Positions 2 through 29,776 of a stretch of DNA of 32,612 nt are shown here, piece after piece. The DNA lies in NCBI GenBank assembly GCA_964373295.1, contig CAYJUA010000001.1, positions 85,600-118,211 on the forward strand. The letters run 5' to 3'. The stretch comes from an uncultured Planctomycetia bacterium. Its GTDB lineage: Bacteria > Omnitrophota > Gorgyraeia > 1-14-0-20-64-10. The notes under the pieces were generated by a model. That model saw only the letters and a program-made list of their open reading frames with translations, did no database searches and had not been told where the DNA came from. The position numbers and the translations under genes are program-made. Positions within the stretch are counted from its first letter, which is position 1. Each line of letters begins with the position of its first letter.

Positions 2-343
2 CATTACGACGCGGAGGGGCTCAACTTCCGGATGAGCGAGTTCACGGCGGCGCTGGGATGCGTGCAGACCGAGCGGATGCCGGAGATCGTCGAGTGGAAA
101 CAGGGGTACGCCCGCGATGTCCTGGACGGGTTGCACCCCGCGCGCCTGCGCCTTCCCGCGGGGATGCGCTCGGGCTACTACAAGTACATCACCTTTGAGC
201 CGGGGGAGCGCTCCACGGGGAAGGTCTACGAGCAGCCCTGCCACCGGCTGATGGGGCGCCGCGTGGACCTGCCCAACACCGACTGGGTCTGTCAGCACCA
301 CTGGTGCGCACCGCTCTATTACCCGGCGCCCCCATGCGGCTGA
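2..343 (+). CDS. DegT/DnrJ/EryC1/StrS-family PLP sugar aminotransferase, C-terminal fragment (5' end outside window)
   Basis: The frame is open from the window edge (HYDAEGLNFRMSEFTAALGCVQTERM...). The GxNxRMSExxAAxG block plus a short C-terminal domain is the conserved tail of DegT-type aminotransferases. Stop TGA at 341-343. Confidence 0.7.
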   Translation, partial: HYDAEGLNFRMSEFTAALGCVQTERMPEIVEWKQGYARDVLDGLHPARLRLPAGMRSGYYKYITFEPGERSTGKVYEQPCHRLMGRRVDLPNTDWVCQHHWCAPLYYPAPPCG

Positions 344-1521
344 GCGAGCGGATCCGCGGCCCTCTCCGAAAGCTCCGTGCGGACAACGTGGTCCTCATGG
401 GCGCCCGTGCCCTGTTGGCCGCCCTGCTGATGGTGGGCACGGTCCGGATCCTGCGTCCCTGGATCTCCCCCGCGCTGAATTGGCTGGAACTCACCGAGAT
501 GCTCATCGCGCTTGCCATCGCGACGGAGCTCACCTTTCGCTTCCTTCTGCGCACCCGCTGGCGCCAGATTGCCCAGGACCCGGCAGGAGACTTCCGGATG
601 GACCCTCACCCCTTCGCCCACTTCATCCCCTCCAGCCGCTACCCGGACGTCCACCCCCACGGGTTCCGGATTCCCATGAGGGGCCAGCCGCTGCGCAAGG
701 AGACCCCATCCCTCTATCTGGCCGGCGACTGCACCCTGTTCGAGGAACACCTCCCCCAGGAGGAGACCTTCGCATACCATCTGGCCCGGCGGTTCCCGGA
801 TCTGCAGATTCTCAACGCGGGCACCGACCACTACACGGCGCTCCATTCGTACAACCGGTTCGTGCTGGACATCCTGCAGGGCTACCGCCCCAAGGCCGTG
901 CTGTTCGGATCGGCGACGAACGACTGCCTCTCCTTCATCCACCACAAGGAGGGAATGGTGAGGCCGGACCACTCCCACATGTACCGCCCTTGGCTCTCCC
1001 TGGAGCAGATCCACGGCCGTCTGCGCCATGTCCCCACCTCGACCCTCCGGTACCTATTCCTCCAATTCCTCCTGGGGCGGGAACGCACGGCGTGGGACGT
1101 GATGGCCGAGGACATCAGCCCGACGTTTCAGGACCCTCGGAGCGCCGCCACGGCTCGCCAACTGTTCGATCCGAAGGGGTTCCGGACCTGCCTGTCCCTC
1201 TTCCAGGGGACCTGCGAAACGATCGGATCGAGGATGGTGCTCACCACGTACGCCTACCAGCCGTGGGACATGCTGGAGGAGCCCCGCAGGACCTACGCCT
1301 GGGGGATCGACCGCTTGAACCACGAGATCCGGCTCTTCGCCCGCACCGAGGAGGTGCCCCTCATCGACCTAGCCGATGAGATGGTGGTGGAGGGGGGAGA
1401 CATCCTGAACAAGTGGCATTACACCCTGTCGGGCAACCGGAAGCGGGCCGAGATCGTCTCGCGCCGCCTCCGACAGATTCTCCCGCTCCATCCGGAGACC
1501 GCTCATGCCTCCCACCCCTGA
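334..1521 (+). CDS. Membrane-anchored SGNH/GDSL-like hydrolase/acyl-esterase with variant catalytic residues
   Basis: From ORF 304..1521; I place the start at ATG 334, but GTG 304 is possible. Two hydrophobic N-terminal segments (VVLMGARALLAALLMVGTV, LTEMLIALAIATELTFRFLL). SGNH-like blocks follow: LYLAGDCTLFE (block I, with Cys where Ser is expected), ILNAGTDHY (II), VLFGSATND (III, GxND) and NKWHYTLSGNRKRAE (V-like). Confidence 0.6.
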   Translation: MRLSERIRGPLRKLRADNVVLMGARALLAALLMVGTVRILRPWISPALNWLELTEMLIALAIATELTFRFLLRTRWRQIAQDPAGDFRMDPHPFAHFIPSSRYPDVHPHGFRIPMRGQPLRKETPSLYLAGDCTLFEEHLPQEETFAYHLARRFPDLQILNAGTDHYTALHSYNRFVLDILQGYRPKAVLFGSATNDCLSFIHHKEGMVRPDHSHMYRPWLSLEQIHGRLRHVPTSTLRYLFLQFLLGRERTAWDVMAEDISPTFQDPRSAATARQLFDPKGFRTCLSLFQGTCETIGSRMVLTTYAYQPWDMLEEPRRTYAWGIDRLNHEIRLFARTEEVPLIDLADEMVVEGGDILNKWHYTLSGNRKRAEIVSRRLRQILPLHPETAHASHP

Positions 1522-3445
1522 GCAGAAGCGGATCGCCAACGCCTACTACACCTACGGGATCCTCTATCTCTCTGAAAGTTTCAAGCGGTGGGAGAACGCT
1601 CAGGGGGAGCCGTATCGGCAGTACCGCCGCGCCTGGGCGCATCGGGCGGAGCGCCTGGACCATGGGGAGTTCCCCCTGAACCTCAATGTCGAGGTGACGA
1701 CCCGCTGCAATCTGGCCTGCACCTTCTGCGCCCACTCGAGCCTCGCGGAGGAACAGAGGTTCGACATGCCCTGGGAGATGTACGCCCGGCTCATCGAGGA
1801 GGGCCAGCGGCATCGGACCCCCGCAGCCAACTTGAACGGCCTGGGGGAACCGATGCTGGTGCCGGACCTGCCGCGATGGATCCGCCTGGCCAAGGAGCAC
1901 GGCTTCCTGGACGTCATGTTCCACACCAACGGCACCCTGATGACACAGCGGCAGGCGCAGCATCTCATCGAATCAGGCCTTGACCGGATCATCTTCTCCG
2001 TGGACTCGCCCGACAAGGCCACCTACGAGGCGATGCGGCTGCGCGGCCGGTGGGAGCAGGTGGTGGCCAACGTGCGGCGCTTCCGCGAGACCCGCGAACG
2101 CCTGGGCTGGCAGACCCCCCTGATCCGGACCACCATGGTGGTGACCGACCGCACCTTCCACCAGGTCCCGGACTTCGTCGACCTTTGGAAGCCGGTGGCG
2201 GACCAGATCACCCTGCAGGACCTCACCTGGCGGACCAAGACCTTGGAGCGGGGATCCTGGGTGAACCAGGAGAAGAGCGCGATCCCCTCCGACCTGGACA
2301 CGATCCGGCAGGAGGCGAAGCGCCGGAAACTCTCCTTCGTCTGCCCCTACCTCTACCAATCGGCCTACGCCTACGGCAACGGCGACGTCATCCCCTGCAG
2401 CAATCCCAATGCCCGGAAGTTCATGGTGATGGGCCGCCACGACCGGGAGGGGATGGCCGGGGTCTGGCAGGGCAAGCCGTACCGGGAGCTGCGCCGGCTT
2501 CACGCCGAGGGCCGATGGGACGAGCACCCGGTCTGCCGGGAGTGCGAGATCCCCCTGATCGAGCTGTACAAAGCGATGCGGCAGCAGGACGCCTCGGATT
2601 CGGACTCGGCCGCCCCCCCGGTCGCTTCCTCCCTGGCGCCCAAGGACGGCTCGGGGGAGGACCTCGTCCTGCAGTGCCAGAAGGAGCAAGGGGCGTCCTC
2701 CTCGCAGACGGGAGGCTCCGGCTCCCGGATGAAACCGCGCCTCTCGATCGTGATCGCCACACACAACCAGGAGGGCACCCTGGAGAGGGCCCTGCAGAGC
2801 GCCCTCCAACAGGACGCAGGGCCAGGGCATCATGAGGTGATCGCCGTGGATGACGGCTCCACCGATCGGACGCCGGAGATCCTGCGCGCGTACGCCGGGC
2901 GAATCCAGGCGGTCCGCCAAGAGAACCAGGGCCTCGCCGCGGCCTGCAATGCCGGGCTGGCGCAGGCGCGTGGAGAGTACTTCGCCCGGCTCGATTCCGA
3001 CGATTGGGCTGCGCCCTCCTGGCTGCGGAAGCTGGCAGACCTGCTCGAGCAGCACCCGGAGGCCTGCGGCGCCTACCCGGACTACACGGAGCTCTGTGAG
3101 CAGGACCGCCGGGTCTTGCAGCCCGCGCACGAGGACAATCTTTACTCGCTTCTGGCCTGCGGCACCCTTTTCCGCACGCAGGCCCTCCGCGCCGTGGGCG
3201 GGTACCGGGCCCTCTTCTGGGAGGAGTACGACCTGTACCTGCGCCTGCGGGAGCGCGGACCGCTGCTCCATCTGCCCGAGCCTCTGTATTTCGTCCGGAA
3301 ACACCCCGACAGCATGACGGCCAGCGCCGCCCGCCGCCGGCAGGGATGGAAAGAGCTCCTCGGGCTCTGGAGCCCCGAGCAGCTCCGCTCCGCCGGATGG
3401 GATCCGGAGATGGAGGAGGCGGTCGCCGAGGCCCCCGCCGCATGA
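1505..3445 (+). CDS. Fusion protein: radical SAM/SPASM-domain enzyme (N-terminal) + family 2 glycosyltransferase (C-terminal)
   Basis: ATG 1505 overlaps the upstream stop. CNLACTFC is the CxxxCxxC radical SAM motif. Auxiliary Cys motifs CPYLYQSAYAYGNGDVIPC and CRECE are SPASM-like. A Ser/Asp/Gly-rich linker follows. From the in-frame Met at 2729: LSIVIATHNQ, VIAVDDGSTD and ARLDSDD form a GT2 (GT-A, DxD) signature. There is no stop between the halves. Confidence 0.85.
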   Translation: MPPTPEQKRIANAYYTYGILYLSESFKRWENAQGEPYRQYRRAWAHRAERLDHGEFPLNLNVEVTTRCNLACTFCAHSSLAEEQRFDMPWEMYARLIEEGQRHRTPAANLNGLGEPMLVPDLPRWIRLAKEHGFLDVMFHTNGTLMTQRQAQHLIESGLDRIIFSVDSPDKATYEAMRLRGRWEQVVANVRRFRETRERLGWQTPLIRTTMVVTDRTFHQVPDFVDLWKPVADQITLQDLTWRTKTLERGSWVNQEKSAIPSDLDTIRQEAKRRKLSFVCPYLYQSAYAYGNGDVIPCSNPNARKFMVMGRHDREGMAGVWQGKPYRELRRLHAEGRWDEHPVCRECEIPLIELYKAMRQQDASDSDSAAPPVASSLAPKDGSGEDLVLQCQKEQGASSSQTGGSGSRMKPRLSIVIATHNQEGTLERALQSALQQDAGPGHHEVIAVDDGSTDRTPEILRAYAGRIQAVRQENQGLAAACNAGLAQARGEYFARLDSDDWAAPSWLRKLADLLEQHPEACGAYPDYTELCEQDRRVLQPAHEDNLYSLLACGTLFRTQALRAVGGYRALFWEEYDLYLRLRERGPLLHLPEPLYFVRKHPDSMTASAARRRQGWKELLGLWSPEQLRSAGWDPEMEEAVAEAPAA

Positions 3446-4332
3446 CGCACCCCGCGCGCGCCCCGCGGACCGCGGTGATCGCCGAGATCGGCGAGAACCA
3501 TCTCGGCCGCCTGGATCTGGCCCTCCGGATGCTGGAAGAGGCCGCGAGGGCAGGGGCCGACATCGTCAAGTTCCAATCGTACCGCGGCGGCGACGTGGAT
3601 CCCGGCGATCCGGAGCGGGAGTGGTTCAGCCAGGTGGAGCTGACCGATGACATGCACCGGCAGCTCAAGCGCCGCGCCGAAGAGCTTGGGATCCAGTTCC
3701 TCAGCTCCCCCTTCACCGTGGAGCGGGCGCGGTTCCTCTGCGAGGATATGAGCCTCCGGAGCGTCAAGATCGCCTCCTCCGAGATACTGAACCTTCCCCT
3801 CTTGGATTACGTCAACCCGAGGGTGGAGACGGTCTATCTCTCCACGGGCATGTCCACCCTCGAGGAGGTCTCTCTGGCCCTGGGCCATCTGGACCACCCG
3901 CGGGTGGTCATCCTCCACTGCGTCACGCAGTATCCGGCCCGGGATGAAGACGCGAACCTCCTTGCCATCCCCACGCTCCAGGAAGCCTTCCCGGAACGGG
4001 CGGTGGGATACTCCGATCACACGACGGGGATCGAGGCCGCCGTCGCGGCGGCGGCGCTGGGAGCGGCGGTCGTCGAGAAGCATTTCACCCTGAGCAAAAA
4101 CCTTCCCGGCACCGACCATGTCCTTTCCGCCACCCCGGAGGAGCTGGCCGAGATGATCCGAAGGATCCGGCGGGTGGAGGGGCTGCTGGGAAGCGGCTCC
4201 AAGGAGCCGGCGGCCGCCGAGCGGGAGATCCGCGACGCCGTGCGCAGCCGCTGGCGAAAGCAAGAGGCGTCCCCTTCGCGAGCTGTATCGGCCCCCTCAG
4301 CCGGTACCGGGCACTGCGGTACGCATAAATGA
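3442..4332 (+). CDS. NeuB-family (N-acylneuraminate/nonulosonate synthase-like) protein lacking the C-terminal SAF domain
   Basis: ATG 3442 forms an ATGA overlap with the upstream stop. NeuB TIM-barrel motifs: AVIAEIGENHLG, ADIVKFQSY, VKIASSE, VYLSTGMST, ILHCVTQYPA, GYSDHTTG, VEKHFTL. The ORF ends about 30 aa after the barrel, and its last ~15 codons are repeat copy R1-a. Confidence 0.8.
   Translation: MTHPARAPRTAVIAEIGENHLGRLDLALRMLEEAARAGADIVKFQSYRGGDVDPGDPEREWFSQVELTDDMHRQLKRRAEELGIQFLSSPFTVERARFLCEDMSLRSVKIASSEILNLPLLDYVNPRVETVYLSTGMSTLEEVSLALGHLDHPRVVILHCVTQYPARDEDANLLAIPTLQEAFPERAVGYSDHTTGIEAAVAAAALGAAVVEKHFTLSKNLPGTDHVLSATPEELAEMIRRIRRVEGLLGSGSKEPAAAEREIRDAVRSRWRKQEASPSRAVSAPSAGTGHCGTHK
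4283..4328 (+). repeat. GGTACC-rich palindromic repeat, family 1, copy a
   Basis: CTGTATCGGCCCCCTCAGCCGGTACCGGGCACTGCGGTACGCATAA. By hand alignment, about 40 of 47 columns match copy b at 23591-23637. It lies at the NeuB-like / MBL gene junction. Confidence 0.85.
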
Positions 4333-5678: not shown

Positions 5679-6634
5679 AGCCGAAGCCCCAGAGGACCGT
5701 CGGGCGCGGGGGGCCTCCAGGGCCGGACTTCCTGGAGGAACACCTTCAGGTCCAGTGGCTGCGGCCGGAATCGGCCCTGTGGGATGCGATCGCCTCCCGG
5801 GTCATCGCCTCGCAGGGGAGCTTCGATTCGCCCTCGCTGGACATGGGCTCCGGGAACGGGATCTTCAGCTTCATCACGGCGGGCGGCTCTTTCTCCCCGG
5901 AATACGATTGGTACCGCAACGCGGACCCCGGCGGCTCCCGACAGCCGCGCGACCTCTACGACTGCTTCTTTGCTGGTCCGGGCCCCGGGTCGATCACGCG
6001 CAGACCCCGGTACCGGATCGACTGCGCCCTGGACGCCAAGGCGAACCTGCTGCGCCAGGCCGAAGGACTGGAGTTCTACCGGCGCCGGATCGCCGCCGAC
6101 GCCAACCGCCCGCTGCCCTTCCCGGATGGCTCGTTCCAGACGGTTTTTTCCAACATGCTCTGCTGGCTGGCTTCCGCCGAAGCCGCGCTGAGGGAAATCC
6201 ACCGCGTGCTGCGGGGCGGGGGGCGGGCTTGGGCTTGCCTCCCGACGCCGAGGTTCAAGAAGTACTGCGCCAGCTTCCGGTGGCGGGAGGAGAACTCCGA
6301 GCTCCTGCGCCTGTTGAACCGGGGCCGAAGCGACGCAATCCGCTGGACGATCTCCCGCCGGGAGCTGGAGGCCCTCGCCCGGACCCTCCGGTTCCGGGTG
6401 GTCTGCCACTCCACCTACCTCTCTCCCTTGACCCTGCGGATATGGGACGTGGGCTTCAGAGGCCTCTCCCCCGTGCTGCTCCGAATGGTTTCCAAGCTGG
6501 GGAGGGCCGATCGGCTCTCCATCAAGCAGGAGTGGGTGGAAACCTTCCGGCCGTTCCTCCGGGAGCTGTACGAGATGGACCAGGCCAGCCGCGCGCCGGG
6601 CGGCTACCAGTGGATCGGGCTGGAGAAACGATGA
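5654..6634 (+). CDS. Class I SAM-dependent methyltransferase
   Basis: LDMGSGNG (motif I), PFPDGSFQTVFSN and HRVLRGGGRAW. The first in-frame start is TTG 5654, which overlaps the upstream gene by 25 nt, so the start is uncertain. Confidence 0.7.
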   Translation: MALLPALLEPKPQRTVGRGGPPGPDFLEEHLQVQWLRPESALWDAIASRVIASQGSFDSPSLDMGSGNGIFSFITAGGSFSPEYDWYRNADPGGSRQPRDLYDCFFAGPGPGSITRRPRYRIDCALDAKANLLRQAEGLEFYRRRIAADANRPLPFPDGSFQTVFSNMLCWLASAEAALREIHRVLRGGGRAWACLPTPRFKKYCASFRWREENSELLRLLNRGRSDAIRWTISRRELEALARTLRFRVVCHSTYLSPLTLRIWDVGFRGLSPVLLRMVSKLGRADRLSIKQEWVETFRPFLRELYEMDQASRAPGGYQWIGLEKR

Positions 6635-8382
6635 AGGTCGTCCTCTGCACCACCCCGATCCGCCCTGTGCCGACGGAATACCCCCCCTTCGGCTCCATCG
6701 CCCTGATGCAGGCGATGCGGGAGGCCGGGTTCGACCCGATCTTCTTCGACATCGACGCTCTCCGGCCCACCTTTGAGGAGGTGATCCAGCGGTTCCGGAA
6801 GGAGTCGCCGGACGTGATCGGCGTCAGCGCCGTCGTCTCCACCGCCTACGCCTACGTGAAAACGCTCTGCACCCGGCTCAAAAGAGAGCTCCCCGGCGTG
6901 CGGATCGTGCTCGGCGGGAATCTCGCCGCCAGCGCCGAGCTCCTCCACCGCTTCTGCCAGGTGGACGTCTGCGTGGCCGGGGAGGGCGAGCGGGTGATGG
7001 CGAACCTGCTCCGGTACTGCCTCCGTCACGCCAACGAGGAGGACTACGCCGAGCTGCGCCAGGTCCCGGGGATCACCTTCCTTGACCCATCGGGGCAGAT
7101 GATCTTCACCGGCTACGAGCCCGCGATCCCGGCCGGCGAGCTGGCCGATCCCGACTGGAGCATCCTCGAGGAGTTCTCCAACATCCGAAACTTCATCCGG
7201 GATCCCTTCAGCCGGGAGGACTTCTCGCAGGATCCCCGCAGCCGGCAAGCCCACCGGTCGGGGAAGCGGCTGGGCACGGTGACCTCCACCAAGGGCTGCG
7301 TGGCCCGGTGCACCTTCTGCCACCGGTGGGACCGCGGGTTCCGCCAGGTCCCCCCTGAAAAAGTCCTGGGCCGGATCCGCTATCTTAAGGACCGGTACAA
7401 CGTCGGTTTCTTCCAGTTCGGGGACGAGAACTTCGGATCGGACCTCCGGGCCCTGGACCGGATGATCAATCTGATCCGCCCCCTGGACATCCTGTGGCAG
7501 GTCGCCGGGGTCCGGGCCCGCACGCTCAGCCCGGACCGCCTCAAGCGGATGCAGGCGGCCGGCTGCGTCGCGCTCTACTACGGCTTCGAGACCGGAAGCC
7601 CCGAGATCCTCAAGGTCATGGAGAAGAACACGGACCTTTCCCACAACCTCAACGCCGCCCGGTGGACCCATGAGGCGGGGCTCTACACCTGCTACCAGCT
7701 GGTCCTGGGGATGCCCGGCGAGACCCACCGAACGATCACGGACACGGTCACCATGCTCAAGCAGATCACCGAGTTCCTCCCCGCCCAGCCGTATTGGCAC
7801 CTGAGCACCAACTACATCCAGGCCCTTCCCGGGACCCCCGTGTATGAGTTCGCGAGGAACCGGGGGCTCATCGGCCCGCGCCTGGAGGATGAAGACGCCT
7901 ACCTCGTCTCCGTCTCCGACATCGACGCGGGGGACGAAAACAAGTTCGTCAACTACACCGAGTACCCTTACCTCACGGTTCAAAGCTGGCGGCCGCGGAT
8001 CCTTTACGAGATCACCGCGCACTGGTACCGGGTGAGGAAAGACCGCCCGCTGCCCCAGGAGGAACCCAAGGGGCACTTCAAGGAGTATCAGAAGGGAGGG
8101 TACTTCAACCGGCACAAGGTCCAGCGATCTCCCCGGATGATGCTGGCCCTGCATCCCTTCCGGAAGATCCTGATCGCCCTCTGGACGCTGGTCAGCGCCT
8201 ACCGGCGCAACCCGAAGAAGGTGTTCCTGGGTCATCTCTGGGAATGGGTTTCCTGGCGCTTCACTCGCAGGCCCGCCCCGTTCCGGGACTACCGATCCCT
8301 GCGGCAGATCATGGAGGAGGCGACGCCGGCCCCGGCCGCCGTCAGCGAGGAAAGCATGCTGCCCCTCCGGGTAGGACGTTAG
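6631..8382 (+). CDS. B12-binding-domain radical SAM protein (class B-like)
   Basis: ATG 6631 forms an ATGA overlap. N-terminal Rossmann-like region (MKVVLCTTP..., DVIGVSAVVSTAY, IVLGGN), then GCVARCTFC (CxxxCxxC). The part of the 915-aa track ORF upstream of this Met overlaps the methyltransferase in another frame and is not credible. Confidence 0.85.
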   Translation: MKVVLCTTPIRPVPTEYPPFGSIALMQAMREAGFDPIFFDIDALRPTFEEVIQRFRKESPDVIGVSAVVSTAYAYVKTLCTRLKRELPGVRIVLGGNLAASAELLHRFCQVDVCVAGEGERVMANLLRYCLRHANEEDYAELRQVPGITFLDPSGQMIFTGYEPAIPAGELADPDWSILEEFSNIRNFIRDPFSREDFSQDPRSRQAHRSGKRLGTVTSTKGCVARCTFCHRWDRGFRQVPPEKVLGRIRYLKDRYNVGFFQFGDENFGSDLRALDRMINLIRPLDILWQVAGVRARTLSPDRLKRMQAAGCVALYYGFETGSPEILKVMEKNTDLSHNLNAARWTHEAGLYTCYQLVLGMPGETHRTITDTVTMLKQITEFLPAQPYWHLSTNYIQALPGTPVYEFARNRGLIGPRLEDEDAYLVSVSDIDAGDENKFVNYTEYPYLTVQSWRPRILYEITAHWYRVRKDRPLPQEEPKGHFKEYQKGGYFNRHKVQRSPRMMLALHPFRKILIALWTLVSAYRRNPKKVFLGHLWEWVSWRFTRRPAPFRDYRSLRQIMEEATPAPAAVSEESMLPLRVGR

Positions 8383-8395
8383 AGAGAACCCATCC

Positions 8396-9280
8396 ATGTT
8401 GAGCGGGATCCTCGGATGGATGCTTTACCAGGTGACTCCCCCCCAGCTCAAGAAGGCCTGCATGGAGGACTTCTTCGCGGGGCAGGCGACCCCAGGCCCC
8501 GTCTCCCATCTCCTGCGCAAGGAGATCGTCCGGAAATACCGCCGCCTGGATGACGCCAGCAAGCGGCGGCTCAACCGGGAACGGTTCTGGGGATCCGGCC
8601 CCGGTATCGCCTGGCACGAGCTCAAGCGGAAGGAGTACTCGGATCCCGGGCGTTTCCAACAGGAGTTCCTCCGCTTTCGGAAACCGCTGGCGGACCAGAT
8701 CGCCGACCTCGCCTCCGCGTGCCCCGAGATGGAAACCCTCTGTCACATCGGGACGGGGAATGGGCTGTTCCTCGAGCACCTCTCCCGGAGGATCCCGCAG
8801 ATCAAAAACTTCGTGGGGATCGACATCTGTCGGGAGCAGATCGAGAAGTGCCGGAGAAACTACCGCGGTTCCCCCCTTCGGTTCGAGCACACCGAGGTCC
8901 TCGATTGGATGCAGGGGCAGCCCACGGGCGGAATCATCTTCGTGGCGGTCGGGACCCTCCAGTATTTCACCCCGCAGGAGCTGGACGAATTCCTGGAGGC
9001 CGCCTGGAGCCGGATCCGCCCCGCAGCCATCGCGTTGAGCGAGCCCGTGAACATCGCGCTGACGTCCGCTGTCCGGTCGGAACCCCGCGGAGACATCGGG
9101 TACAGCCATCCCTACCCTTACCTGTTCCAGAAATTCAACTACCAGATGTTCCAGAGCGCGGTCGTGCCCGTCGACCCCCGCACCCCGCGCTACAACGAGG
9201 TCATCCTTGTTGCCACGAACACACCCCTGCGCCGGATTCTCCCGGAGAAAGAACGCGCCCTTGCGGATCTACCTGGCTGA
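8396..9280 (+). CDS. SAM-dependent methyltransferase
   Basis: ATG 8396. LCHIGTGNGLFLE (GxGxG motif I), NFVGIDIC (acidic end of beta-2) and IIFVAVGTLQYF (motif IV-like). Confidence 0.7.
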   Translation: MLSGILGWMLYQVTPPQLKKACMEDFFAGQATPGPVSHLLRKEIVRKYRRLDDASKRRLNRERFWGSGPGIAWHELKRKEYSDPGRFQQEFLRFRKPLADQIADLASACPEMETLCHIGTGNGLFLEHLSRRIPQIKNFVGIDICREQIEKCRRNYRGSPLRFEHTEVLDWMQGQPTGGIIFVAVGTLQYFTPQELDEFLEAAWSRIRPAAIALSEPVNIALTSAVRSEPRGDIGYSHPYPYLFQKFNYQMFQSAVVPVDPRTPRYNEVILVATNTPLRRILPEKERALADLPG

Positions 9281-11330
9281 TCTGACGCACACGGGACTGG
9301 GGATCGCCACCGAGGCCTTCCCGCTCAACGTGGGCCTCGTCGCCTCCTACGCCCAGAAAAGGTTCGGCAGGGAAGTGGAGATCTCCCTCTTCAAGTACCC
9401 CGAGGAGCTGAGCGAGGCCCTGGCCAAAGCGCCGCCCGACGTGCTGGGATGCAGCAACTACACGTGGAACAGCCGGCTCGCGGACCATTTCGCGCAGATC
9501 GCCAAGGCCCTGAAGCCGGACCTCCTCACCGTTTTCGGCGGGACCAACTACCCCTTCGATGCCCAGAACCAGAGGATATTCCTGGAGCGCAGGCCATGGC
9601 TCGACGCGCACATCTTTTACGAGGCCGAGGCGGCGTTCTCCCTCCTCATCGAGAGGATCCTTTCCTCGCCCGGCAGGCAGCGCTGGCTCGAGGAGCCGAT
9701 CCCCGGCTGCCAGTTCCTCCACCCGCAGAGCCGGACGCTCTGCGCCGCGGCCGCCCCCCCTCGGATCCAAGACCTCGACTCGATCCCCTCCCCCTACGCG
9801 ACGGGCCTCTTTGACCGGTTCTTCGACGGCAGGCTGACCCCCCTGCTGGAAACCGCCCGGGGCTGCCCCTTCACCTGCAACTTCTGCAACGCCGGCGCCT
9901 CCTACTTCACCCGGGTCAACCAGTTCAGCGACGCCTACGTCCGGGAGGAGTGGGAGTACGTGGCCCGCAAGGCCGAAGCCGCGGGGATCGGCCACCTGAC
10001 CCTGGCCGACAACAACTTCGGCATGCTGCCCAGGGACACGCAGACCGCCGAGCTCATGCACGAGCTCCAGCGGCGGTATGGGTGGCCCCGTTCGGTCACC
10101 GCCTGGACCGGCAAAAACAGCAAGAAGCGGGTGATCGACGTCACCCGCCTGCTGGGGGACACCCTGGTGATCAGCATGGCCGTGCAGTCCATGGATGAGA
10201 AGGTTCTCAAGACGATCGCCCGCTCCAACATTCGACTGGAGGACTACCGCGCCATCGCGCAGGAGCTCAACGCCCAGGGCAGGCCCCAGGTGGGGGAGCT
10301 CATCGCCCCGCTCCCCGGAGACACCTGGGAGTCCTACCTTCGGGGGGTGCACCAGCTGCTGGACGCGGGGGTGAGCACGATCCTCGTCCACACCCTGCAG
10401 ATGCTCCACGGCACCCCCTACAAGGATGACCCCCGCTTCATCGCCGAGCACGGATTCCTCCGCAAGCACCGGCTGGTCCCCCTGGACTTCGGCACCTACG
10501 ACGGCCGAATGCTCTTTGACACGGAGGAGGTCGGGGTGGCCACGAAGACGTTCTCCCTGGAGGAGTACGTCGAGTCGAGGAAATACCTTCTCCTCGTGGA
10601 TCTCTGCTACAACGGCACGGTCTGCGAGCCGCTGAAGAGGTACCTCTCCGAGCGCGGGATCCGGATGTCGGAGTGGATCCATTCCCTCCATCTGCGCAGC
10701 CCCGATTTCCCGGCCCCCGTGAAGGCCGTCTTCGACAGCTTCGGCGCGGAAACCCGGGCTGAGCTGTGGGACACCGAGGAGCAGCTCGTGGAATTCTACT
10801 CCAAGCCGGAGAACTACCGCAGGCTCCTCCAGGGAGAGATCGGTGGAAACGTTCTCTTCAAACACAAGGTCCGGATGCTCGCCGAGCGGGGCAGGGAATG
10901 GATCGACGCCGTCTTCTCCCTTTCCCAGGAGCTTCTCGACCGCCGCGCCGCCGGCCCGGAACCGCAGGCCGGAGAGGAGCTGGAGGAACTGCGGCGCCAC
11001 ATCCTCTGCTGCCTGGCCGATGCGTTCCGCCTGGGGGCGGAGGAGAAGCCGGTGACCGCCGAGTTCCGCTACGACATCCCCGGCTGGATGAGCCGTCCGG
11101 CGGCCCCCTTGGGGAGCTTCCGGCGGCAAGGATCCTTTCAGGTGGATTTCGAGTTCACCCAGGAGCAGCGCCTCCTCCGGGTGGAGGCGCTCCGCCGCTA
11201 TGGGGCGCATCCGGCCGCCATCGTCAAATGGATCCAGCGTCTCGCGGGCATCCAGCGCCTCATGCGTCAACCCCATGTGGAAACCCCCGATGTTTCTGGC
11301 CACCACAGCCCTGTCCGAGTTCTGGGATAA
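9207..11330 (+). CDS. B12-binding-domain radical SAM protein (class B-like)
   Basis: RIYLADLTHTG..., DVLGCSNYTWN and LLTVFGGTNYP form an N-terminal B12-binding-type domain. GCPFTCNFC is the CxxxCxxC motif. No ATG is available; candidate starts are TTG 9207 (GAGG 6 nt upstream) or TTG 9261. Confidence 0.8.
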   Translation: MLPRTHPCAGFSRRKNAPLRIYLADLTHTGLGIATEAFPLNVGLVASYAQKRFGREVEISLFKYPEELSEALAKAPPDVLGCSNYTWNSRLADHFAQIAKALKPDLLTVFGGTNYPFDAQNQRIFLERRPWLDAHIFYEAEAAFSLLIERILSSPGRQRWLEEPIPGCQFLHPQSRTLCAAAAPPRIQDLDSIPSPYATGLFDRFFDGRLTPLLETARGCPFTCNFCNAGASYFTRVNQFSDAYVREEWEYVARKAEAAGIGHLTLADNNFGMLPRDTQTAELMHELQRRYGWPRSVTAWTGKNSKKRVIDVTRLLGDTLVISMAVQSMDEKVLKTIARSNIRLEDYRAIAQELNAQGRPQVGELIAPLPGDTWESYLRGVHQLLDAGVSTILVHTLQMLHGTPYKDDPRFIAEHGFLRKHRLVPLDFGTYDGRMLFDTEEVGVATKTFSLEEYVESRKYLLLVDLCYNGTVCEPLKRYLSERGIRMSEWIHSLHLRSPDFPAPVKAVFDSFGAETRAELWDTEEQLVEFYSKPENYRRLLQGEIGGNVLFKHKVRMLAERGREWIDAVFSLSQELLDRRAAGPEPQAGEELEELRRHILCCLADAFRLGAEEKPVTAEFRYDIPGWMSRPAAPLGSFRRQGSFQVDFEFTQEQRLLRVEALRRYGAHPAAIVKWIQRLAGIQRLMRQPHVETPDVSGHHSPVRVLG

Positions 11331-13080
11331 AAGGCAGCAGATCCTTTTCCTCGGCCCCTGGTGCCAGCGGGAGGACCGGCGGCCGGATTGGGAAGGAATC
11401 CGGGGAAGGGTGCTGCCCAGCCCTTGGGATGACCCGGAGCGCTACCACCAGGCCGCCGGGTATGTGAACGGGGTCTACGAGCGGACGCTGTATCGGCTGG
11501 CCGATCGTTTGAACCAGGCCCATGGCCTGCGCGCTTCCCCCCGCTACTGGCGAATCCTCCTGGGCCCGTGGCTGATGCACTACCTCCATGCCCTCTACGA
11601 CCGGTGGGTCCATCTCCAGGAAGCCCTCCGTGCGGACCCCGGGCTCACGACGATCCTCCTGGACCCGGCCTGTCACGAGGTGCCGCGCAGCGGCCGGCAG
11701 TTTTTCCGCTGGATCCTGGAAGACCGGTACAACCTCCAGCTCTTCTCTCAGATCCTCACCCTCCGAGGCAAATCCCTCCCCACCCGACGCTTGGCTCCGG
11801 AACCCGGGGGAGGGGTCCCGCCCCGGCAAGGACCGCGGATCGCCGGAGCGATCCGGAAGGCCGGATCCGCCGCGTCCATCACCGTCTCCAGACTCCTGAT
11901 GAGCCGGGGGGAGGTGGGGATCGCGCACGCGGATCTCTCCGCGCCTTCTCTCTGGAAGCTGATCCTGTCAACGGGCTTGAGGGCCGTTCCCCTCTACCTG
12001 GACCGCGAGGAGGATCCGGCCCCTTCCGAACCCCTTTTGGACGACCGCAGGAAAGGTCTCGCCTCCGGGGAGGGCGGGGACGACTTTGAGAAACTCCTCG
12101 CCTCCACTCTGCCCCAGAACTTCCCCACCTGCTACCTGGAAGGGTTCGCCTCCGCTCGCGCGAAGGCCCTGGCCAGGGCTGGCCGGACCCCTCCCGTCCT
12201 GCTGTCTGCCTACGGCTGGTACTTCCACGAGGAGTTCCAGTTCCTGGCGGCGGAGGTCGCCGAGCGGGGCGGAAGGCTCCTGGCCGCCCAGCACGGCGGC
12301 GGCTATGGGGTCTATCGCCTGGCCCCCCAGGAGCGTCATGAACTGCAGGTCGCGGACCGCTTCCTGGCGTGGGGCTGGGGCGGCGGCAATGGGGACCGGA
12401 CGGAGAACCTCCCCTCTCCAAAGCTCTCTCAGCTCGTTGGCCTGCGCGGGCCCGCCCGGAGGGGGACCGCGCAGGGCAGCGCCCTCTTTGTCGCCACGAC
12501 CAATCCCCGCTACTTCTATCGCTTCTACTCCTCGCCCCAGGCCGCCCAGCTGGCAGATTACTTCCGTTGGCAGCGGCGCTTCCTCCGAGCCCTGCCGGAG
12601 ACCGCCCGCCCCCAGCTTCTTTTCCGCGGCCATCCCGAGGACTTCGGACACAAAACCCGGCAGCAGCTCAGCGCCGACTTCCCGTGGCTGCGGTGGGACG
12701 GAGACCGCTCCTTCCGGAGAGCGGTCTCCAAAACACGCCTGGTCCTCATTGACCACCTCGGAACCTCGCTGCTGGAGGCGCTGGCGGCCGACCGGCCCCT
12801 GGTGGCCTGGTGGAACCCCAGCCATTGGGCCGTGAGGGAGGAGGCGCGTCCGTTTTTCGAAGACCTGCTCGAGGCCGGGATTCTCTGGCACGATCCGGAG
12901 AAGGCCGCCGCCCATGCGGCGGCTGTGTGGAAGGACCCCCGCGCCTGGTGGTCTCGGCCGGAGATCCAGGAGGCGCGCCGCCGATTGCTCGAGCGGTTCG
13001 CCTGGGGACGGACCTGCTGGGCGGAGGAGTGGGCCGGGATGCTCAGGCGCCAGGCCCTCCCGCGGGCGAGGGAGGCATAG
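11290..13080 (+). CDS. Large uncharacterised putative transferase (resembles the LIC12162-type family of Leptospira O-antigen loci)
   Basis: ATG 11290 (ATG 11275 is also possible). The N-terminus MFLATTALSEFWDKRQQILFLGPWC matches, from memory only, the LIC12162-type putative transferase signature. I can verify no catalytic motif by eye. Coding status is supported by length, codon bias and operon fit. Confidence 0.65.
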   Translation: MFLATTALSEFWDKRQQILFLGPWCQREDRRPDWEGIRGRVLPSPWDDPERYHQAAGYVNGVYERTLYRLADRLNQAHGLRASPRYWRILLGPWLMHYLHALYDRWVHLQEALRADPGLTTILLDPACHEVPRSGRQFFRWILEDRYNLQLFSQILTLRGKSLPTRRLAPEPGGGVPPRQGPRIAGAIRKAGSAASITVSRLLMSRGEVGIAHADLSAPSLWKLILSTGLRAVPLYLDREEDPAPSEPLLDDRRKGLASGEGGDDFEKLLASTLPQNFPTCYLEGFASARAKALARAGRTPPVLLSAYGWYFHEEFQFLAAEVAERGGRLLAAQHGGGYGVYRLAPQERHELQVADRFLAWGWGGGNGDRTENLPSPKLSQLVGLRGPARRGTAQGSALFVATTNPRYFYRFYSSPQAAQLADYFRWQRRFLRALPETARPQLLFRGHPEDFGHKTRQQLSADFPWLRWDGDRSFRRAVSKTRLVLIDHLGTSLLEALAADRPLVAWWNPSHWAVREEARPFFEDLLEAGILWHDPEKAAAHAAAVWKDPRAWWSRPEIQEARRRLLERFAWGRTCWAEEWAGMLRRQALPRAREA

Positions 13081-18218: not shown

Positions 18219-18220
18219 CG

Positions 18221-28194: not shown

Positions 28195-28775
28195 GCACGC
28201 AGACGGAGGTCCGGCCGGCTCATCGGGAGCTGCTCCGGATCAACATCGGAAGCGGCCGGAGGCGCCTGCCTGGTTTCCTCAGCGTGGACAACAACGCCAA
28301 CGCCGGCGACGTGGATGTGGTCCACGACCTGGAGCGCCTTCCTTGGCCGTTTGAGGAGAGCTCCGTGGGGGAAGTGGTCATGGATCACGCGCTGGAGCAC
28401 TTGGAGGACACGATGGGGGTCGTCCAGGAGCTCCATCGGATCTGCGCCGATGGGGCGCAGATCACGATCCGGGTGCCCCACTTTTCCTGCGCGTGGAATC
28501 ACCCGGGGCATAAGCGGGCGATCGGGGTGGGCCTCTTTAACCATTTCGACCCCCGCCACGAAGAGCGTTACGGCAACTGCCAATTTGAGGTGGGACGGGT
28601 CCGCCTTCGCTGGATGCAGCCCCGCTACCGGACCACCTGGCTGCGGCGGGCGGCCAGTGGCGCGTTGGACTTCCTCGCAAACCTGAGCGTCCGCTTCTGT
28701 CAGCGGATCTGGTGCTACTGGGTGGGCGGGTTTGACGAAATCGAGTTCCGGGTCAGAGTGGTGAAGCCCTCGTGA
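28191..28775 (+). CDS. Small SAM-dependent methyltransferase (Methyltransf_11-like)
   Basis: ATG 28191 forms an ATGA overlap. LRINIGSGRRRLPGFLSVD, VVMDHALEHL and ADGAQITIRVPH. Confidence 0.75.
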   Translation: MSTQTEVRPAHRELLRINIGSGRRRLPGFLSVDNNANAGDVDVVHDLERLPWPFEESSVGEVVMDHALEHLEDTMGVVQELHRICADGAQITIRVPHFSCAWNHPGHKRAIGVGLFNHFDPRHEERYGNCQFEVGRVRLRWMQPRYRTTWLRRAASGALDFLANLSVRFCQRIWCYWVGGFDEIEFRVRVVKPS

Positions 28776-29776
28776 CGGAAGCGCTGGCGAACACCAACTT
28801 CCACAAGGTGACAGCGAGGAGCGTCTTCGACACCCGCGCCGCCGATTCGAGGTTCCGGGAGTATCGGCGTCGATGGGACCAATACCCCCGCACCTTCACG
28901 GTGGCAAGCTTCCCCACGCACCTGGACATCGAGTCCACGGGGGTCTGCAACCTCCGCTGCCCCTTCTGCGCCACCGGCACGAAGAACTGGGGGCCGAACG
29001 AGCGCGGGTACATGCAGATGCCTCTGTACCGCGGGATCATCGACGAGGGAGCCGCCGAGGGGCTCTTCGCCATCAAGCTGAGCTTTCGGGGCGAGCCCAC
29101 CCTGCACCAACAGCTGCCCGAGATGGTGGCCTACGCCAAGGAGAAAGGGATCCTGGACGTCTACTTCAACACCAACGGCACGATGCTCACGGAGAAGCTG
29201 GTGAACCGGCTGATCGACGCGGGGCTGGACCGGATCTCGATCTCCTTCGAGGGGATCGAGAAGGAGCCCTACGAGAAGAGCTACCGTGTGGGGGCCAAGT
29301 ACGACAAGGTGGTGGAGAACGTCCGCACTCTGAAGCGGGTCCGGGACGGGCGGGGGCGGGGGATCCCCCAGATCCGGGTGCAGTCGGTGATGCTCCCAGA
29401 GCTGAAGGAGGCCTTTCCCCAGTACGTGGAGTTCTGGAAGCCCCACGCGGACGAGATCTCCTACCTCGACATGCGCCGGGAAAGCCCTCAGGACGACCAC
29501 CGGGGGATGCGCGGGGACTGGGCCTGCCCGTATCTCTGGCAGAGGATGACGATCCTCTGGGACGGGACCACGCTGCCGTGCCCGATGCCGGGGCTGGCCA
29601 ACTTCGACCTGCTGGCGCTTGGAAACGCCGGGGAGAAGAGCATCAAAGAGATGTGGATGAGCCCCGAGAGCATGCGGTACCGGAAGCTCCACCAATCGAA
29701 GCGGGCCCACGAGCTGGAGGCCTGCGACCGCTGCTCCTTCCGGGCGAACGAACTGCAGAAGCTGGGGGAGCGGTGA
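28772..29776 (+). CDS. Radical SAM/SPASM-domain protein (paralogue of the N-terminal half of 1505..3445)
   Basis: GTG 28772 forms a GTGA overlap. CNLRCPFC (CxxxCxxC), VYFNTNGTML, GLDRISISFEG, and the SPASM-like CPYLWQRMTILWDGTTLPC and CDRCSF. Visibly collinear with the 1505..3445 N-terminal half. Confidence 0.85.
   Translation: MTEALANTNFHKVTARSVFDTRAADSRFREYRRRWDQYPRTFTVASFPTHLDIESTGVCNLRCPFCATGTKNWGPNERGYMQMPLYRGIIDEGAAEGLFAIKLSFRGEPTLHQQLPEMVAYAKEKGILDVYFNTNGTMLTEKLVNRLIDAGLDRISISFEGIEKEPYEKSYRVGAKYDKVVENVRTLKRVRDGRGRGIPQIRVQSVMLPELKEAFPQYVEFWKPHADEISYLDMRRESPQDDHRGMRGDWACPYLWQRMTILWDGTTLPCPMPGLANFDLLALGNAGEKSIKEMWMSPESMRYRKLHQSKRAHELEACDRCSFRANELQKLGER

What the first reader, a model, noticed from the sequence alone, without database searches (positions are those of the whole stretch)
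1505..3445. Single ORF fusing a radical SAM/SPASM enzyme to a GT2 glycosyltransferase
Seen: one continuous 646-codon frame. It contains CNLACTFC plus SPASM-like Cys clusters, then a low-complexity linker (QQDASDSDSAAPPVASSLAPKDGSGEDL...SSSQTGGSGSR), then a complete GT2 signature starting at an in-frame Met (nt 2729). A stand-alone paralogue of the rSAM half exists at 28772..29776. Known: SPASM rSAMs are best known as peptide maturases, but they also act on sugars (BtrN-type). GT2 enzymes transfer nucleotide-activated sugars. Inference: physical coupling suggests the radical modification and the glycosyl transfer act on the same substrate, or that the modification occurs on the acceptor. I am not aware of a characterised example of this architecture.
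Basis: partly seen in the sequence, partly recalled or inferred. Interest (0 to 1): 0.7.

Follow-up and report, generated by a model that had tools for sequence, protein, structure and literature searches.

The report
Radical SAM enzyme fused to glycosyltransferase
Two neighbouring sugar-pathway genes, a radical SAM enzyme and a family-2 glycosyltransferase that are separate but overlapping in the closest relatives, have merged into one gene here, which suggests they act together on a sialic-acid-like sugar, although such fusions of neighbouring genes are themselves ordinary.

Summary
The 646-codon ORF (1505..3445, +) is real. It carries Radical_SAM, SPASM and Glycos_transf_2 domains, and codon bias supports one frame throughout. 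In the closest relatives (75-84% identity) the two halves are separate genes joined by a 4-nt ATGA/GTGA overlap, in the order DegT aminotransferase, rSAM, GT2, NeuB. The window keeps the ATGA but carries a net +1 nt within the last 19 nt before it, which joins the frames. A second lineage (P0001, 59% identity) fused independently by deleting the tail.

No frameshifts occur in about 14 kb of other orthologue-covered genes, so an assembly artefact is unlikely (about 10-15%). Reads were not available to exclude it.

The "low-complexity linker" is mostly the conserved, ordered C-terminal tail of the rSAM; only about 10 residues are flexible. The "SPASM" part has four invariant Cys, enough for one auxiliary cluster (twitch-like).

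Related loci that lack the GT2 carry a PseG UDP-sugar hydrolase instead. My favoured inference is that the rSAM tailors the nucleotide amino-sugar and the GT2 releases or transfers it for NeuB.

GT2+rSAM/SPASM single proteins exist elsewhere in reverse order (about 40 clusters, uncharacterised). I rate this a new variant of a known kind, of moderate interest.

The parts
1505..3445 (+). Full fused ORF, 646 aa: radical SAM / twitch-like Fe-S domain, then tail, then GT2
   Evidence: AF2 full-length model has pLDDT 89.5.
1706..1729 (+). CX3CX2C motif (C68, C72, C75) that binds the radical-SAM [4Fe-4S] cluster
   Evidence: Invariant in 27 and in 72 aligned homologues.
2342..2545 (+). Auxiliary-cluster region. 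It holds four invariant Cys (C280, C298, C344, C347; C-x17-C-x45-C-x2-C), which matches Pfam SPASM but can ligate only one cluster (twitch-like).
   Evidence: Definition of twitch versus SPASM from PMC9012708.
2621..2686 (+). Conserved C-terminal tail motif of the rSAM enzyme (V373-E394, VASSLAPKDGSGEDLVLQCQKE), predicted ordered with a helix at 387-399
   Evidence: The motif is present in stand-alone orthologues and in P0001. pLDDT is 80-94 even when the rSAM half is folded without the GT2.
2687..2728 (+). Flexible Gly/Ser linker (Q395-R408). It contains the net +1 nt change that joins the frames, within the last 19 nt (2710-2728). Removing one base here, for example from CCC at 2724-2726, would restore a 14-aa tail ending in a TGA that overlaps the ATG.
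   Evidence: Junction comparison with L004, L005 and L006. pLDDT is below 50 at residues 401-407. GC3 by frame.
2729..2732 (+). Relic ATGA start/stop overlap of the ancestral split genes. The ATG is now the in-frame Met409, and the TGA is out of frame. GGGAGG lies 13 nt upstream (2710-2715).
   Evidence: ATGA is seen in L004 and L006, and GTGA in L005.
2729..3442 (+). GT2 (GT-A fold) domain, 238 aa, soluble. Motifs: DDGSTD (nt 2849-2866), DSDD DxD motif (nt 2993-3004), WEEYDLYLRL.
   Evidence: Best structural match is 6p61, with TM 0.93.
3442..4332 (+). Short NeuB-family synthase without a SAF domain. Its start overlaps the fusion's stop (ATGA at 3442-3445). It is the likely consumer of the product.
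2..343 (+). 3' end of the DegT/PseC-like aminotransferase gene, cut by the window edge. It is the most consistently linked upstream neighbour of this rSAM family.
   Evidence: tblastn shows 66-79% identity to the DegT of L001, L004 and L006. Linkage across loci is shown.
364..1521 (+). GDSL/SGNH-like gene between DegT and the fusion. It overlaps the fusion's start by 17 nt.
28772..29776 (+). Distant stand-alone paralogue of the rSAM half (31% identity) with the same four-Cys pattern

Best explanation
The ORF is a genuine, evolutionarily recent in-frame fusion of two genes that are normally adjacent and translationally coupled. Both belong to a pseudaminic-acid-like nonulosonic acid (NulO) biosynthesis cassette.

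**The N-terminal enzyme**
- It is an uncharacterised radical SAM enzyme with one auxiliary [4Fe-4S] cluster (twitch-like).
- By inference, it abstracts a hydrogen atom from the nucleotide-linked 4-amino-6-deoxy-hexose made by the upstream SDR dehydratase and DegT aminotransferase.
- It would then carry out a redox tailoring step: a BtrN- or DesII-like dehydrogenation or deamination, or an epimerisation. The exact chemistry is unknown.

**The C-terminal enzyme**
- It is a soluble GT-A glycosyltransferase-fold enzyme with intact nucleotide-sugar and metal-binding motifs.
- By inference, it takes the same nucleotide sugar next.
- Most likely it acts as the nucleotide-sugar hydrolase that frees the sugar for the downstream NeuB synthase, replacing PseG. 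Alternatively it transfers the sugar to an acceptor.

**What the fusion does.** It tethers two consecutive enzymes, and it arose here by a net +1 nt change just before the old ATGA overlap.

**Shown:** the fusion, the domains, the conserved gene order, the two independent fusion events, and the complementary GT2/PseG distribution.

**Inferred:** the substrates and the chemistry.
For: **The fusion and its origin**
- Domains and a continuous coding frame.
- The closest relatives, P0002, P0003 and P0004, have rSAM and GT2 as separate genes with an ATGA/GTGA overlap, followed by NeuB.
- P0001 is fused at a different junction (FQK|NPRVSV, with no ATG). It was recovered by three assemblers.
- The NJ tree puts the window with split P0002-P0004, and P0001 with stand-alone P0019 and P0007. 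This indicates two independent fusions.
- More than 10 other genes in the window align to orthologues as single-frame, full-length matches, so the assembly is not indel-prone.

**Pathway context**
- SDR, DegT, then rSAM is conserved in all orthologue loci with at least 65% identity.
- Loci without the GT2 carry a PseG. L095's protein scores 183 bits on TIGR03590, above the 153.6 cutoff. No PseG is found in the window, L001, L004, L005 or L006.
- The neighbourhood is NulO-type: 2 NeuB genes, 2 PseF-like cytidylyltransferases and an AsnB-like gene.

**Enzyme features**
- GT2 catalytic motifs are at least 90% conserved.
- The closest PDB sequence match of the rSAM half is BtrN. Structural neighbours include the sugar-acting BlsE, BtrN and DesII.
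- In P0001 the tail helix runs directly into GT2 strand 1, which implies close apposition of the two domains.
Against: - No biochemical data exist for any member of either family.
- The window's fusion is one base away from the split state, keeps the ATG, the ATGA and a GGGAGG upstream, and could not be verified with reads or a second assembly.
- GT2 adjacency is not universal. The rSAM of P0019 is followed by a WbqC-family gene, and that of P0007 by a B12-rSAM.
- The GT2/PseG complementarity rests on eight loci, several of them short contigs.
- No GT2-family enzyme is known to me to act as a dedicated NDP-sugar hydrolase. This rests on my own knowledge.
- Structural neighbours of the rSAM half also include peptide maturases (SuiB, SkfB, anSME), all at TM about 0.5, so the fold does not identify the substrate.
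- The full-length model's pTM of 0.65 gives no confident domain interface.
Confidence: 0.55

Rival explanations
1. Assembly or sequencing artefact. The true genome has two genes with the usual ATGA overlap, and a spurious single-base insertion in the last 19 nt before nt 2729 (for example in CCC at 2724-2726) creates the apparent fusion.
For: - The ATGA motif is retained, and the TGA is in the +1 frame exactly where relatives stop.
- Removing one base gives a 14-aa tail after QKE, the same length as in the closest relative, P0002.
- No second copy of the sequence is available to confirm the junction.
Against: - There are no frameshifts in about 14 kb of other orthologue-covered genes in the same window.
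- The candidate site is at most a 3-base homopolymer. The longer runs in the linker (C7 at 2613-2619, G5 at 2653-2657) lie upstream of a register that is conserved with L004.
- GC3 of the last 14 codons is 0.86 in the fused frame and 0.54 in the frame that ends at the TGA.
- An independent, unambiguous fusion of the same gene pair exists in P0001.
Confidence: 0.12
2. The fusion is real, but the GT2 half is a conventional glycosyltransferase. It would transfer the rSAM-modified sugar, or another NDP-sugar, onto a lipid carrier, glycan or protein acceptor, rather than releasing free sugar for NeuB.
For: - All characterised close structural and sequence relatives are true transferases: K4CP, SpsA-type, TarS/TarP, PglI.
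- The DxD and nucleotide-binding motifs are intact.
- A second short GT2 paralogue at 18215-18889 in the same cluster shows that GT2s are used repeatedly here.
Against: - The gene sits between the DegT/rSAM genes and NeuB, not among polymerisation or export genes.
- Its distribution is complementary to PseG.
- The domain is small (238 aa) and soluble, with no membrane or acceptor-binding extension.
Confidence: 0.25
3. RiPP-type system. The rSAM/SPASM half would be a peptide maturase and the GT2 half a peptide glycosyltransferase acting on a ribosomal precursor peptide.
For: - The Pfam SPASM match and structural similarity to SuiB, SkfB and anSME.
- The cluster also holds B12-rSAMs, AsnB-like and methyltransferase genes, which occur in some RiPP clusters.
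Against: - Genes around the fusion overlap or abut (gaps of -17, -4, -4, -1 and -4 nt), leaving no room for a precursor gene.
- The context is sugar-nucleotide chemistry: SDR, DegT, 2 NeuB genes, 2 cytidylyltransferases, and PseG in relatives.
- Only one auxiliary cluster is possible.
- No protease or leader-recognition domain was detected.
Confidence: 0.04

Closest known systems
BtrN (butirosin 2-deoxy-scyllo-inosamine dehydrogenase), a twitch-domain radical SAM enzyme
   Same: - It has a radical SAM core plus a C-terminal domain with a single, fully Cys-ligated auxiliary [4Fe-4S] cluster.
- It acts on an amino-sugar-like small molecule, in partnership with an aminotransferase.
- It is the best PDB sequence hit (E 1.5e-12) and a top structural hit (TMt 0.72-0.78).
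   Different: - Identity is only 17-18%, and the sequence match covers the core only.
- The query is about 140 residues longer. It has an N-terminal extension, an insertion at about 240-275 and a conserved C-terminal tail.
- The pathway (NulO cluster) is different, and no activity is known.
DesII (TDP-4-amino-4,6-dideoxy-D-glucose deaminase, radical SAM)
   Same: - The pathway logic is the same: a 4,6-dehydratase, then a DegT-family aminotransferase, then a radical SAM enzyme acting on the NDP-4-amino-6-deoxy sugar. The DesII pathway itself is from my own knowledge; the gene order is.
- It appears among the structural neighbours (E 1.5e-10).
   Different: - TM is only 0.40-0.48 at 14-16% identity.
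- To my knowledge DesII has no auxiliary cluster.
- It is not a close homologue.
PseG (UDP-2,4-diacetamido-2,4,6-trideoxy-beta-L-altropyranose hydrolase, GT-B fold)
   Same: - It occupies the step just before the NeuB/PseI synthase.
- It is present in related loci exactly where the GT2 is absent.
   Different: - The fold is unrelated: GT-B / Glyco_tran_28_C, against GT-A / GT2.
- Functional equivalence is an inference only.
6p61, glycosyltransferase from Leptospira borgpetersenii (structural-genomics entry)
   Same: - It is the closest solved structure to the GT2 half: TM 0.93, rmsd 1.6 A, 27% identity, with a similar size of 228 aa.
- The DxD and ED-type motifs align.
   Different: - It is a stand-alone protein, and the entry gives no function.
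- At 27% identity it is not an orthologue.
Reverse-order GT2-rSAM(-SPASM) fusion proteins (e.g. L051 3891-5954, L065 4888-6894, P0382-P0420)
   Same: One polypeptide combines Glycos_transf_2 with Radical_SAM and SPASM domains.
   Different: - The domain order is the opposite.
- They carry a long hydrophobic middle segment that looks membrane-spanning by eye in the L051 sequence; this was not predicted with a tool.
- The rSAM half is unrelated (24% identity).
- The hosts are different: Coatesbacteria and Asgard archaea.
- They are also uncharacterised, and sources call them only 'glycosyltransferase'.
MftC/MftF of mycofactocin biosynthesis (rSAM-SPASM plus GT2 in one cluster)
   Same: A radical SAM/SPASM enzyme and a GT2 cooperate in one pathway. 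NCBIfam gives weak hits to both models.
   Different: - The hits are far below the cutoffs: 52 against 265 bits, and 75 against 280 bits.
- That pathway acts on a peptide-derived cofactor, and the two are separate genes.
- No Mft context is present here.

Membership tests
Radical SAM superfamily (PF04055) | CX3CX2C motif that binds the SAM-cleaving [4Fe-4S] cluster, within a partial TIM-barrel core | tested here: met
   - C68-x3-C72-x2-C75 is invariant.
- Pfam scores 76 bits against a cutoff of 29.5.
- The AF2 model of this half has pLDDT 94.7, and its PDB fold neighbours are radical SAM enzymes.
SPASM-domain rSAM (canonical, two auxiliary clusters) | A C-terminal domain with enough conserved Cys (seven, from my own knowledge) to ligate two auxiliary Fe-S clusters. 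[quoted passage not shown] | tested here: not met
   - The Pfam SPASM HMM matches at 36.7 bits.
- Only four Cys (C280, C298, C344, C347) are conserved C-terminal to the core in 72 homologues.
Twitch-domain rSAM (BtrN/MoaA type) | A truncated SPASM domain that binds a single auxiliary cluster (PMC9012708) | tested here: inconclusive
   - The four-Cys count fits one cluster, and BtrN is the top sequence hit.
- Cluster stoichiometry cannot be measured in silico.
- Structural similarity is moderate (TMq 0.45).
Glycosyltransferase family 2 (GT-A fold, inverting) | A Rossmann-like GT-A fold with a nucleotide-binding DDGS-type motif, a DxD metal site and a downstream acidic catalytic residue | tested here: met
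   - Pfam scores 120.9 bits against a cutoff of 23.3.
- DDGSTD, DSDD and WEEYDL are at least 90% conserved and align with K4CP and 6p61.
- Foldseek gives TM 0.93 to 6p61 and 0.70 to SpsA.
Glycosyltransferase family 2 (GT-A fold, inverting) | Transfer of a sugar from an activated donor to an acceptor other than water | not testable with these tools
   This needs an enzyme assay. Gene context suggests hydrolysis as an alternative.
Pseudaminic-acid-type NulO pathway (PseB/C/H/G/I/F) | Equivalog-level matches to the six pathway enzymes | tested here: not met
   - The NeuB genes (272 and 332 bits against the 399.65 cutoff of TIGR03569) and the PseF-like genes (106 and 63 bits against 205.7) score below cutoff.
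- The SDR at the window's 3' end (31661-32563) scores 25 bits on PseB against a cutoff of 407.75; the orthologue of the cassette's own SDR lies outside the window and was not tested.
- No PseH or PseG is found in the window.
- A true PseG is found only in related loci.
- The pathway works like a Pse or Leg route, but it is not a member by these criteria.
RiPP rSAM maturase systems | A co-encoded precursor peptide and, usually, a recognition element or leader protease | tested here: not met
   - No intergenic space is available around the gene.
- No peptidase or RRE family appears in the Pfam scans of the window.

The most novel reading that the evidence does not exclude
The rSAM-GT2 pair defines a previously unrecognised radical branch of nonulosonic acid biosynthesis. 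In this reading, a twitch-type radical SAM enzyme replaces or supplements the PseH step by radical tailoring of the NDP-4-amino-6-deoxy-hexose. A GT-A-fold GT2 has been recruited as a water-directed nucleotide-sugar hydrolase that non-orthologously replaces the GT-B enzyme PseG. The two enzymes would form a physical complex, made covalent in the window and in P0001, that channels the intermediate to a short NeuB synthase.
Probability: 0.25. Interest if true: 0.75.

Novelty: new variant of a known kind. Interest (0 to 1): 0.45.

Why it matters
**Why it matters if the fusion is real.** Two independent fusions plus conserved translational coupling are "Rosetta-stone" evidence that an uncharacterised radical SAM family and a small GT2 work together. 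They would act between the aminotransferase and the NeuB synthase of a sialic-acid-like sugar pathway.

My literature searches found no paper linking radical SAM enzymes to nonulosonic acid gene clusters. The cassette therefore points to new sugar chemistry on bacterial surfaces. The wider cluster adds three B12-dependent radical SAM enzymes and about seven methyltransferases.

**What the fused proteins offer.** They give a ready-made single polypeptide for testing:
- what the radical step is;
- whether a GT-A enzyme can take over the PseG hydrolase role.

**Limits.** The fusion event is a common type of evolutionary change, and the general domain combination already exists elsewhere.

Tried and rejected
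- **Exact-protein look-ups** of the fused protein and of the neighbouring MBL-fold protein found nothing.
- **A junction DNA pattern** that tolerates the critical C-run length found nothing in metagenome or genome contigs. No independent assembly check was therefore possible.
- **The search for related loci with alignment A1** used generic rSAM patterns and returned mainly distant radical SAM loci. It was useful only for revealing the reverse-order fusions.
- **The genome-contig search with the protein** gave only relatives at 55% identity or less, and no taxon for the window. Cluster look-ups gave no organism names.
- **The exhaustive representative search** showed no protein in the top 150 matching both halves. 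P0001 itself is not a representative, so fused members can hide behind split representatives. I treat this result as weak evidence of rarity.
- **The GT2-half search** also failed to list P0001.
- **Two MAFFT alignments** (A2, A4) misplaced the GT2 sequences onto the rSAM half and were discarded. A3 was used instead.
- **The full-length AF2 model** returns no PAE or contacts, so a domain interface could not be assessed.
- **Literature searches** for rSAM + GT fusions and for rSAM + nonulosonic acid gave nothing relevant. The Leptospira NulO paper mentions neither enzyme.
- **A Shine-Dalgarno argument for independent GT2 translation** was dropped to a minor remark, because GGGAGG lies 13 nt from the ATG.
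- **The RiPP reading** was considered and rejected on context.


Full report
**1. The observation**

The window contains one open frame, 1505..3445 on the + strand, of 646 codons.

- Pfam finds Radical_SAM (residues 62-196), SPASM (280-348) and Glycos_transf_2 (414-539), all above their gathering scores.
- NCBIfam gives only partial, sub-threshold matches, so neither half belongs to a named equivalog family.
- The genome is 67% G+C, and third-position GC separates real frames well.
- GC3 is 0.82-0.96 in every 50-codon window of the ORF. In the linker it is 0.92, against 0.69 and 0.60 in the other two frames.
- The frame is therefore coding from end to end.

**2. What the fusion is made from**

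A search of 5.8 billion proteins found one other full-length relative, P0001 (627 aa, 59% identity, 99% coverage). About 90 relatives are stand-alone radical SAM proteins of about 360-460 aa.

The three closest relatives (84, 78 and 75% identity) were traced to their contigs.

- In each, the rSAM gene is followed by a separate 238-240-aa GT2 gene whose start overlaps the rSAM stop by 4 nt. The overlap is ATGA in L004 and L006, and GTGA in L005.
- A short NeuB gene comes next, then an MBL-fold or cytidylyltransferase gene.
- The window has the same gene order, with the same 4-nt overlaps between the fusion, NeuB and the MBL-fold gene.

**3. The junction**

- The window still has ...TCC CGG ATG AAA CCG..., so the ATGA is retained (2729-2732). 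The upstream frame now reads through the ATG, and the TGA falls in the +1 frame.
- The codons CAG ACx (Gln-Thr) are in the same register in the window and in L004. The net +1 nt therefore lies in the last 19 nt before the ATG.
- One base fewer there would give a 14-residue tail after QKE, the same length as in P0002, ending in a TGA that overlaps the ATG.
- The fusion is thus one nucleotide away from the ancestral split state.
- P0001 is fused differently. Its tail is deleted and the sequence runs ...DLALRFQK|NPRVSVLIAAYNQ, with no ATG.
- That protein is encoded identically in three assemblies, which differ by 3-4 nt in 7 kb.
- In a neighbour-joining tree of the rSAM cores, the window is sister to split P0002, then P0003 and P0004. 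P0001 groups with the stand-alone P0019 and P0007.
- Two independent fusions are the parsimonious reading.

**4. Artefact or real?**

Reads are not available, and no second copy of the sequence exists in the collections searched.

The indirect evidence favours a real fusion.

- More than ten other genes of the window, about 14 kb, align to orthologues from four loci as single, full-length, single-frame matches. The assembly therefore shows no indel errors.
- The only homopolymer in the critical 19 nt is CCC.
- The last 14 codons have GC3 of 0.86 in the fused frame and 0.54 in the frame that ends at the TGA.
- The same gene pair is unambiguously fused in P0001.

I put the artefact at about 12%.

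**5. Anatomy**

*The Fe-S domain.* In alignments of 27 and of 72 homologues, the invariant cysteines are C68, C72 and C75 plus only C280, C298, C344 and C347. Four C-terminal Cys can ligate one auxiliary cluster. By the definition in PMC9012708, SPASM domains bind two clusters and twitch domains bind one. This family is therefore twitch-like, even though the Pfam SPASM model matches.

*The "linker".* The supposed low-complexity linker is mostly not a linker.

- Residues 373-394 (VASSLAPKDGSGEDLVLQCQKE) form a motif that is conserved in the tails of stand-alone orthologues and in P0001.
- AlphaFold2 predicts residues 361-400 as ordered, with a helix at 387-399. This holds in the full-length model (pLDDT 75-88) and when the rSAM half is folded alone (pLDDT 80-94, pTM 0.92).
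- The tail therefore packs on the rSAM domain.
- Only residues 401-407 fall below pLDDT 50, so the real flexible linker is about ten Gly/Ser-rich residues.
- In P0001 the tail helix runs straight into the first GT2 strand, which implies that the GT2 sits against the rSAM domain.

*The GT2 half.*

- It keeps DDGSTD, DSDD and WEEYDLYLRL, all at least 90% conserved in 36 sequences. These align with the equivalent motifs of chondroitin polymerase K4CP and of 6p61.
- Its best structural match is 6p61, an uncharacterised Leptospira borgpetersenii glycosyltransferase (TM 0.93, rmsd 1.6 A).

*The rSAM half.*

- It has no close structural relative. SuiB, BlsE, BtrN, SkfB, MoaA, DesII and anSME all match at TM about 0.45-0.54 and 15-19% identity.
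- BtrN is the best PDB sequence hit, over the core only.

**6. Context and likely function**

*The cluster.* The whole 32.6-kb window is one + strand cluster of sugar-tailoring genes. It contains:

- the 3' end of a DegT aminotransferase gene;
- a GDSL-like gene;
- the fusion;
- a short NeuB gene;
- an MBL-fold gene;
- about seven SAM methyltransferases;
- three B12-binding radical SAM enzymes;
- an AsnB-like amidotransferase;
- a second small GT2;
- a GFO/IDH/MocA oxidoreductase;
- two PseF-like cytidylyltransferases;
- a NeuB-SAF-TIM-barrel fusion;
- a HisC-like aminotransferase;
- the rSAM paralogue;
- an SDR epimerase/dehydratase.

All matches to named nonulosonic-acid enzymes are below the NCBIfam cutoffs. 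This is a divergent pathway of that type, not a member of the Pse, Leg or Neu routes.

*Linked neighbours.* Across the nine loci compared, the most constant neighbour of the rSAM is an orthologous DegT (69-79% identity). It lies directly upstream or one gene away, and it is usually preceded by an SDR. The GT2 then NeuB pair follows in five lineages, including the window.

*GT2 versus PseG.* In the three loci where the GT2 is missing (L095, L094, L009) there is a PseG.

- L095's protein passes the TIGR03590 cutoff: 183 bits against 153.6.
- The other two reach 131-132 bits on partial ranges.
- No PseG-like sequence is found in the window, L001, L004, L005 or L006.
- Both states occur within the P0001/P0019/P0007 sub-clade.

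*Inference.* The gene order parallels PseB, PseC, PseH, PseG, PseI and PseF. The rSAM sits where the N-acetyltransferase would act, and the GT2 sits where the UDP-sugar hydrolase would act.

- The rSAM would perform a radical tailoring step on the NDP-4-amino-6-deoxy-hexose. This follows BtrN- or DesII-like logic, with the auxiliary cluster as a probable electron acceptor, as proposed for BtrN in PMC9012708.
- The GT2 would then release or transfer that sugar for the NeuB synthase.
- The fusion tethers two consecutive enzymes.
- None of this chemistry is shown.

**7. Comparison with what is known**

- No paper in the library links radical SAM enzymes with nonulosonic acid clusters, or describes an rSAM-GT2 fusion.
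- The bare domain combination is not unique.
  - L051 and L065 encode GT2-rSAM-SPASM proteins in the reverse order.
  - A search with one of them found about 40 clusters of 668-755 aa. They come from Coatesbacteria, Sigynarchaeota and Promethearchaeota, and sources name them only "glycosyltransferase".
- Adjacent, split rSAM/SPASM + GT2 pairs also occur elsewhere, for example in L022.
- From my own knowledge, rSAM and GT2 enzymes cooperate in known pathways such as MftC/MftF and HpnI/HpnJ.
- The rSAM-to-GT2 order within this orthologous family was seen only in the window and in P0001.
- The exhaustive search of 1.84 billion representatives showed no protein in the top 150 that matches both halves. 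P0001 is itself hidden behind a split representative, so this is weak evidence.

**8. Verdict**

  - Functional coupling is well supported by conserved adjacency, translational coupling and two independent fusions.
  - The fusion is a minimal, recent joining of a gene pair.
  - The "linker" is a native tail.
  - The Fe-S domain is twitch-like.
  - The domain combination exists elsewhere.
- The more interesting lead is the uncharacterised radical SAM family embedded between the aminotransferase and the NeuB synthase, together with the possible replacement of PseG by a GT-A enzyme.
- Interest: 0.45.
- Novelty: new variant of a known kind.

Noticed in passing
window 1-32612 (all genes on the + strand): The whole window is a single co-directional glycan and nonulosonic-acid tailoring cluster that is unusually rich in radical chemistry. 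It has three B12-binding radical SAM enzymes (about 6631-8382, 9261-11330, 25506-27068), two twitch-like rSAMs, about seven SAM methyltransferases, two NeuB genes and two cytidylyltransferases. The product is probably a heavily C- and N-methylated sialic-acid-like sugar.
   Followed up: partly
window 20886-22778; L006 19677-21185: A second gene fusion: NeuB + SAF domain + a C-terminal xylose-isomerase-like TIM barrel (AP_endonuc_2) in one protein of about 630 aa. It is conserved in L006/L007 as a 667-aa product.
   Followed up: no
L051 3891-5954; L065 4888-6894; proteins P0382-P0420: A family of about 40 clusters of 668-755-aa proteins with an N-terminal GT2, a hydrophobic middle segment (judged by eye, not predicted) and a C-terminal radical SAM/SPASM domain. 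Members occur in Coatesbacteria and Asgard archaea (Sigynarchaeota, Promethearchaeota). Sources annotate them only as glycosyltransferase, and no function is known. In L051 a second stand-alone rSAM/SPASM gene lies immediately upstream.
   Followed up: partly
L095 54-1136, L094 about 2093-3151, L009 1487-2314, compared with the window, L001, L004, L005 and L006: PseG (TIGR03590) and the small GT2 show a complementary distribution among loci that carry this rSAM family.
   Followed up: partly
window 2621-2686 (residues 373-394) and the tails of P0002-P0030: A conserved short motif, VASxxAPxDGxxxDLVxQ, lies in the otherwise variable C-terminal tail of the rSAM family. It is predicted to fold back onto the enzyme. 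Its role (lid, partner docking or something else) is unknown.
   Followed up: partly
window 13928-15331: A conserved protein of about 466 aa with no confident family (48% identical to the L006 orthologue). It has a weak Pfam hit to alpha-2,8-polysialyltransferase (E 0.014), so it is a possible transferase for the nonulosonic acid.
   Followed up: no
window 11290-13080 and 23639-25552: Two large ORFs have no match in the Pfam copy used. The first is orthologous to genes labelled PF27859 (LIC12162) in L001 and L006. The second (637 aa, GC3 0.82) has no annotation at all.
   Followed up: no
window 3442-4332: The NeuB homologue next to the fusion is a short form (296 aa; 249-286 aa in the relatives' gene calls) that lacks the C-terminal SAF domain found in the second NeuB of the cluster.
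   Followed up: no
window about 29773-30891: A Trm112-like zinc-ribbon domain is fused to a class I SAM methyltransferase, directly downstream of the rSAM paralogue.
   Followed up: no
window 9207-11330: The second B12-binding radical SAM protein gives a weak extra Pfam hit to GDSL-like lipase in its N-terminal region (E 1.6e-4). This may be spurious.
   Followed up: no
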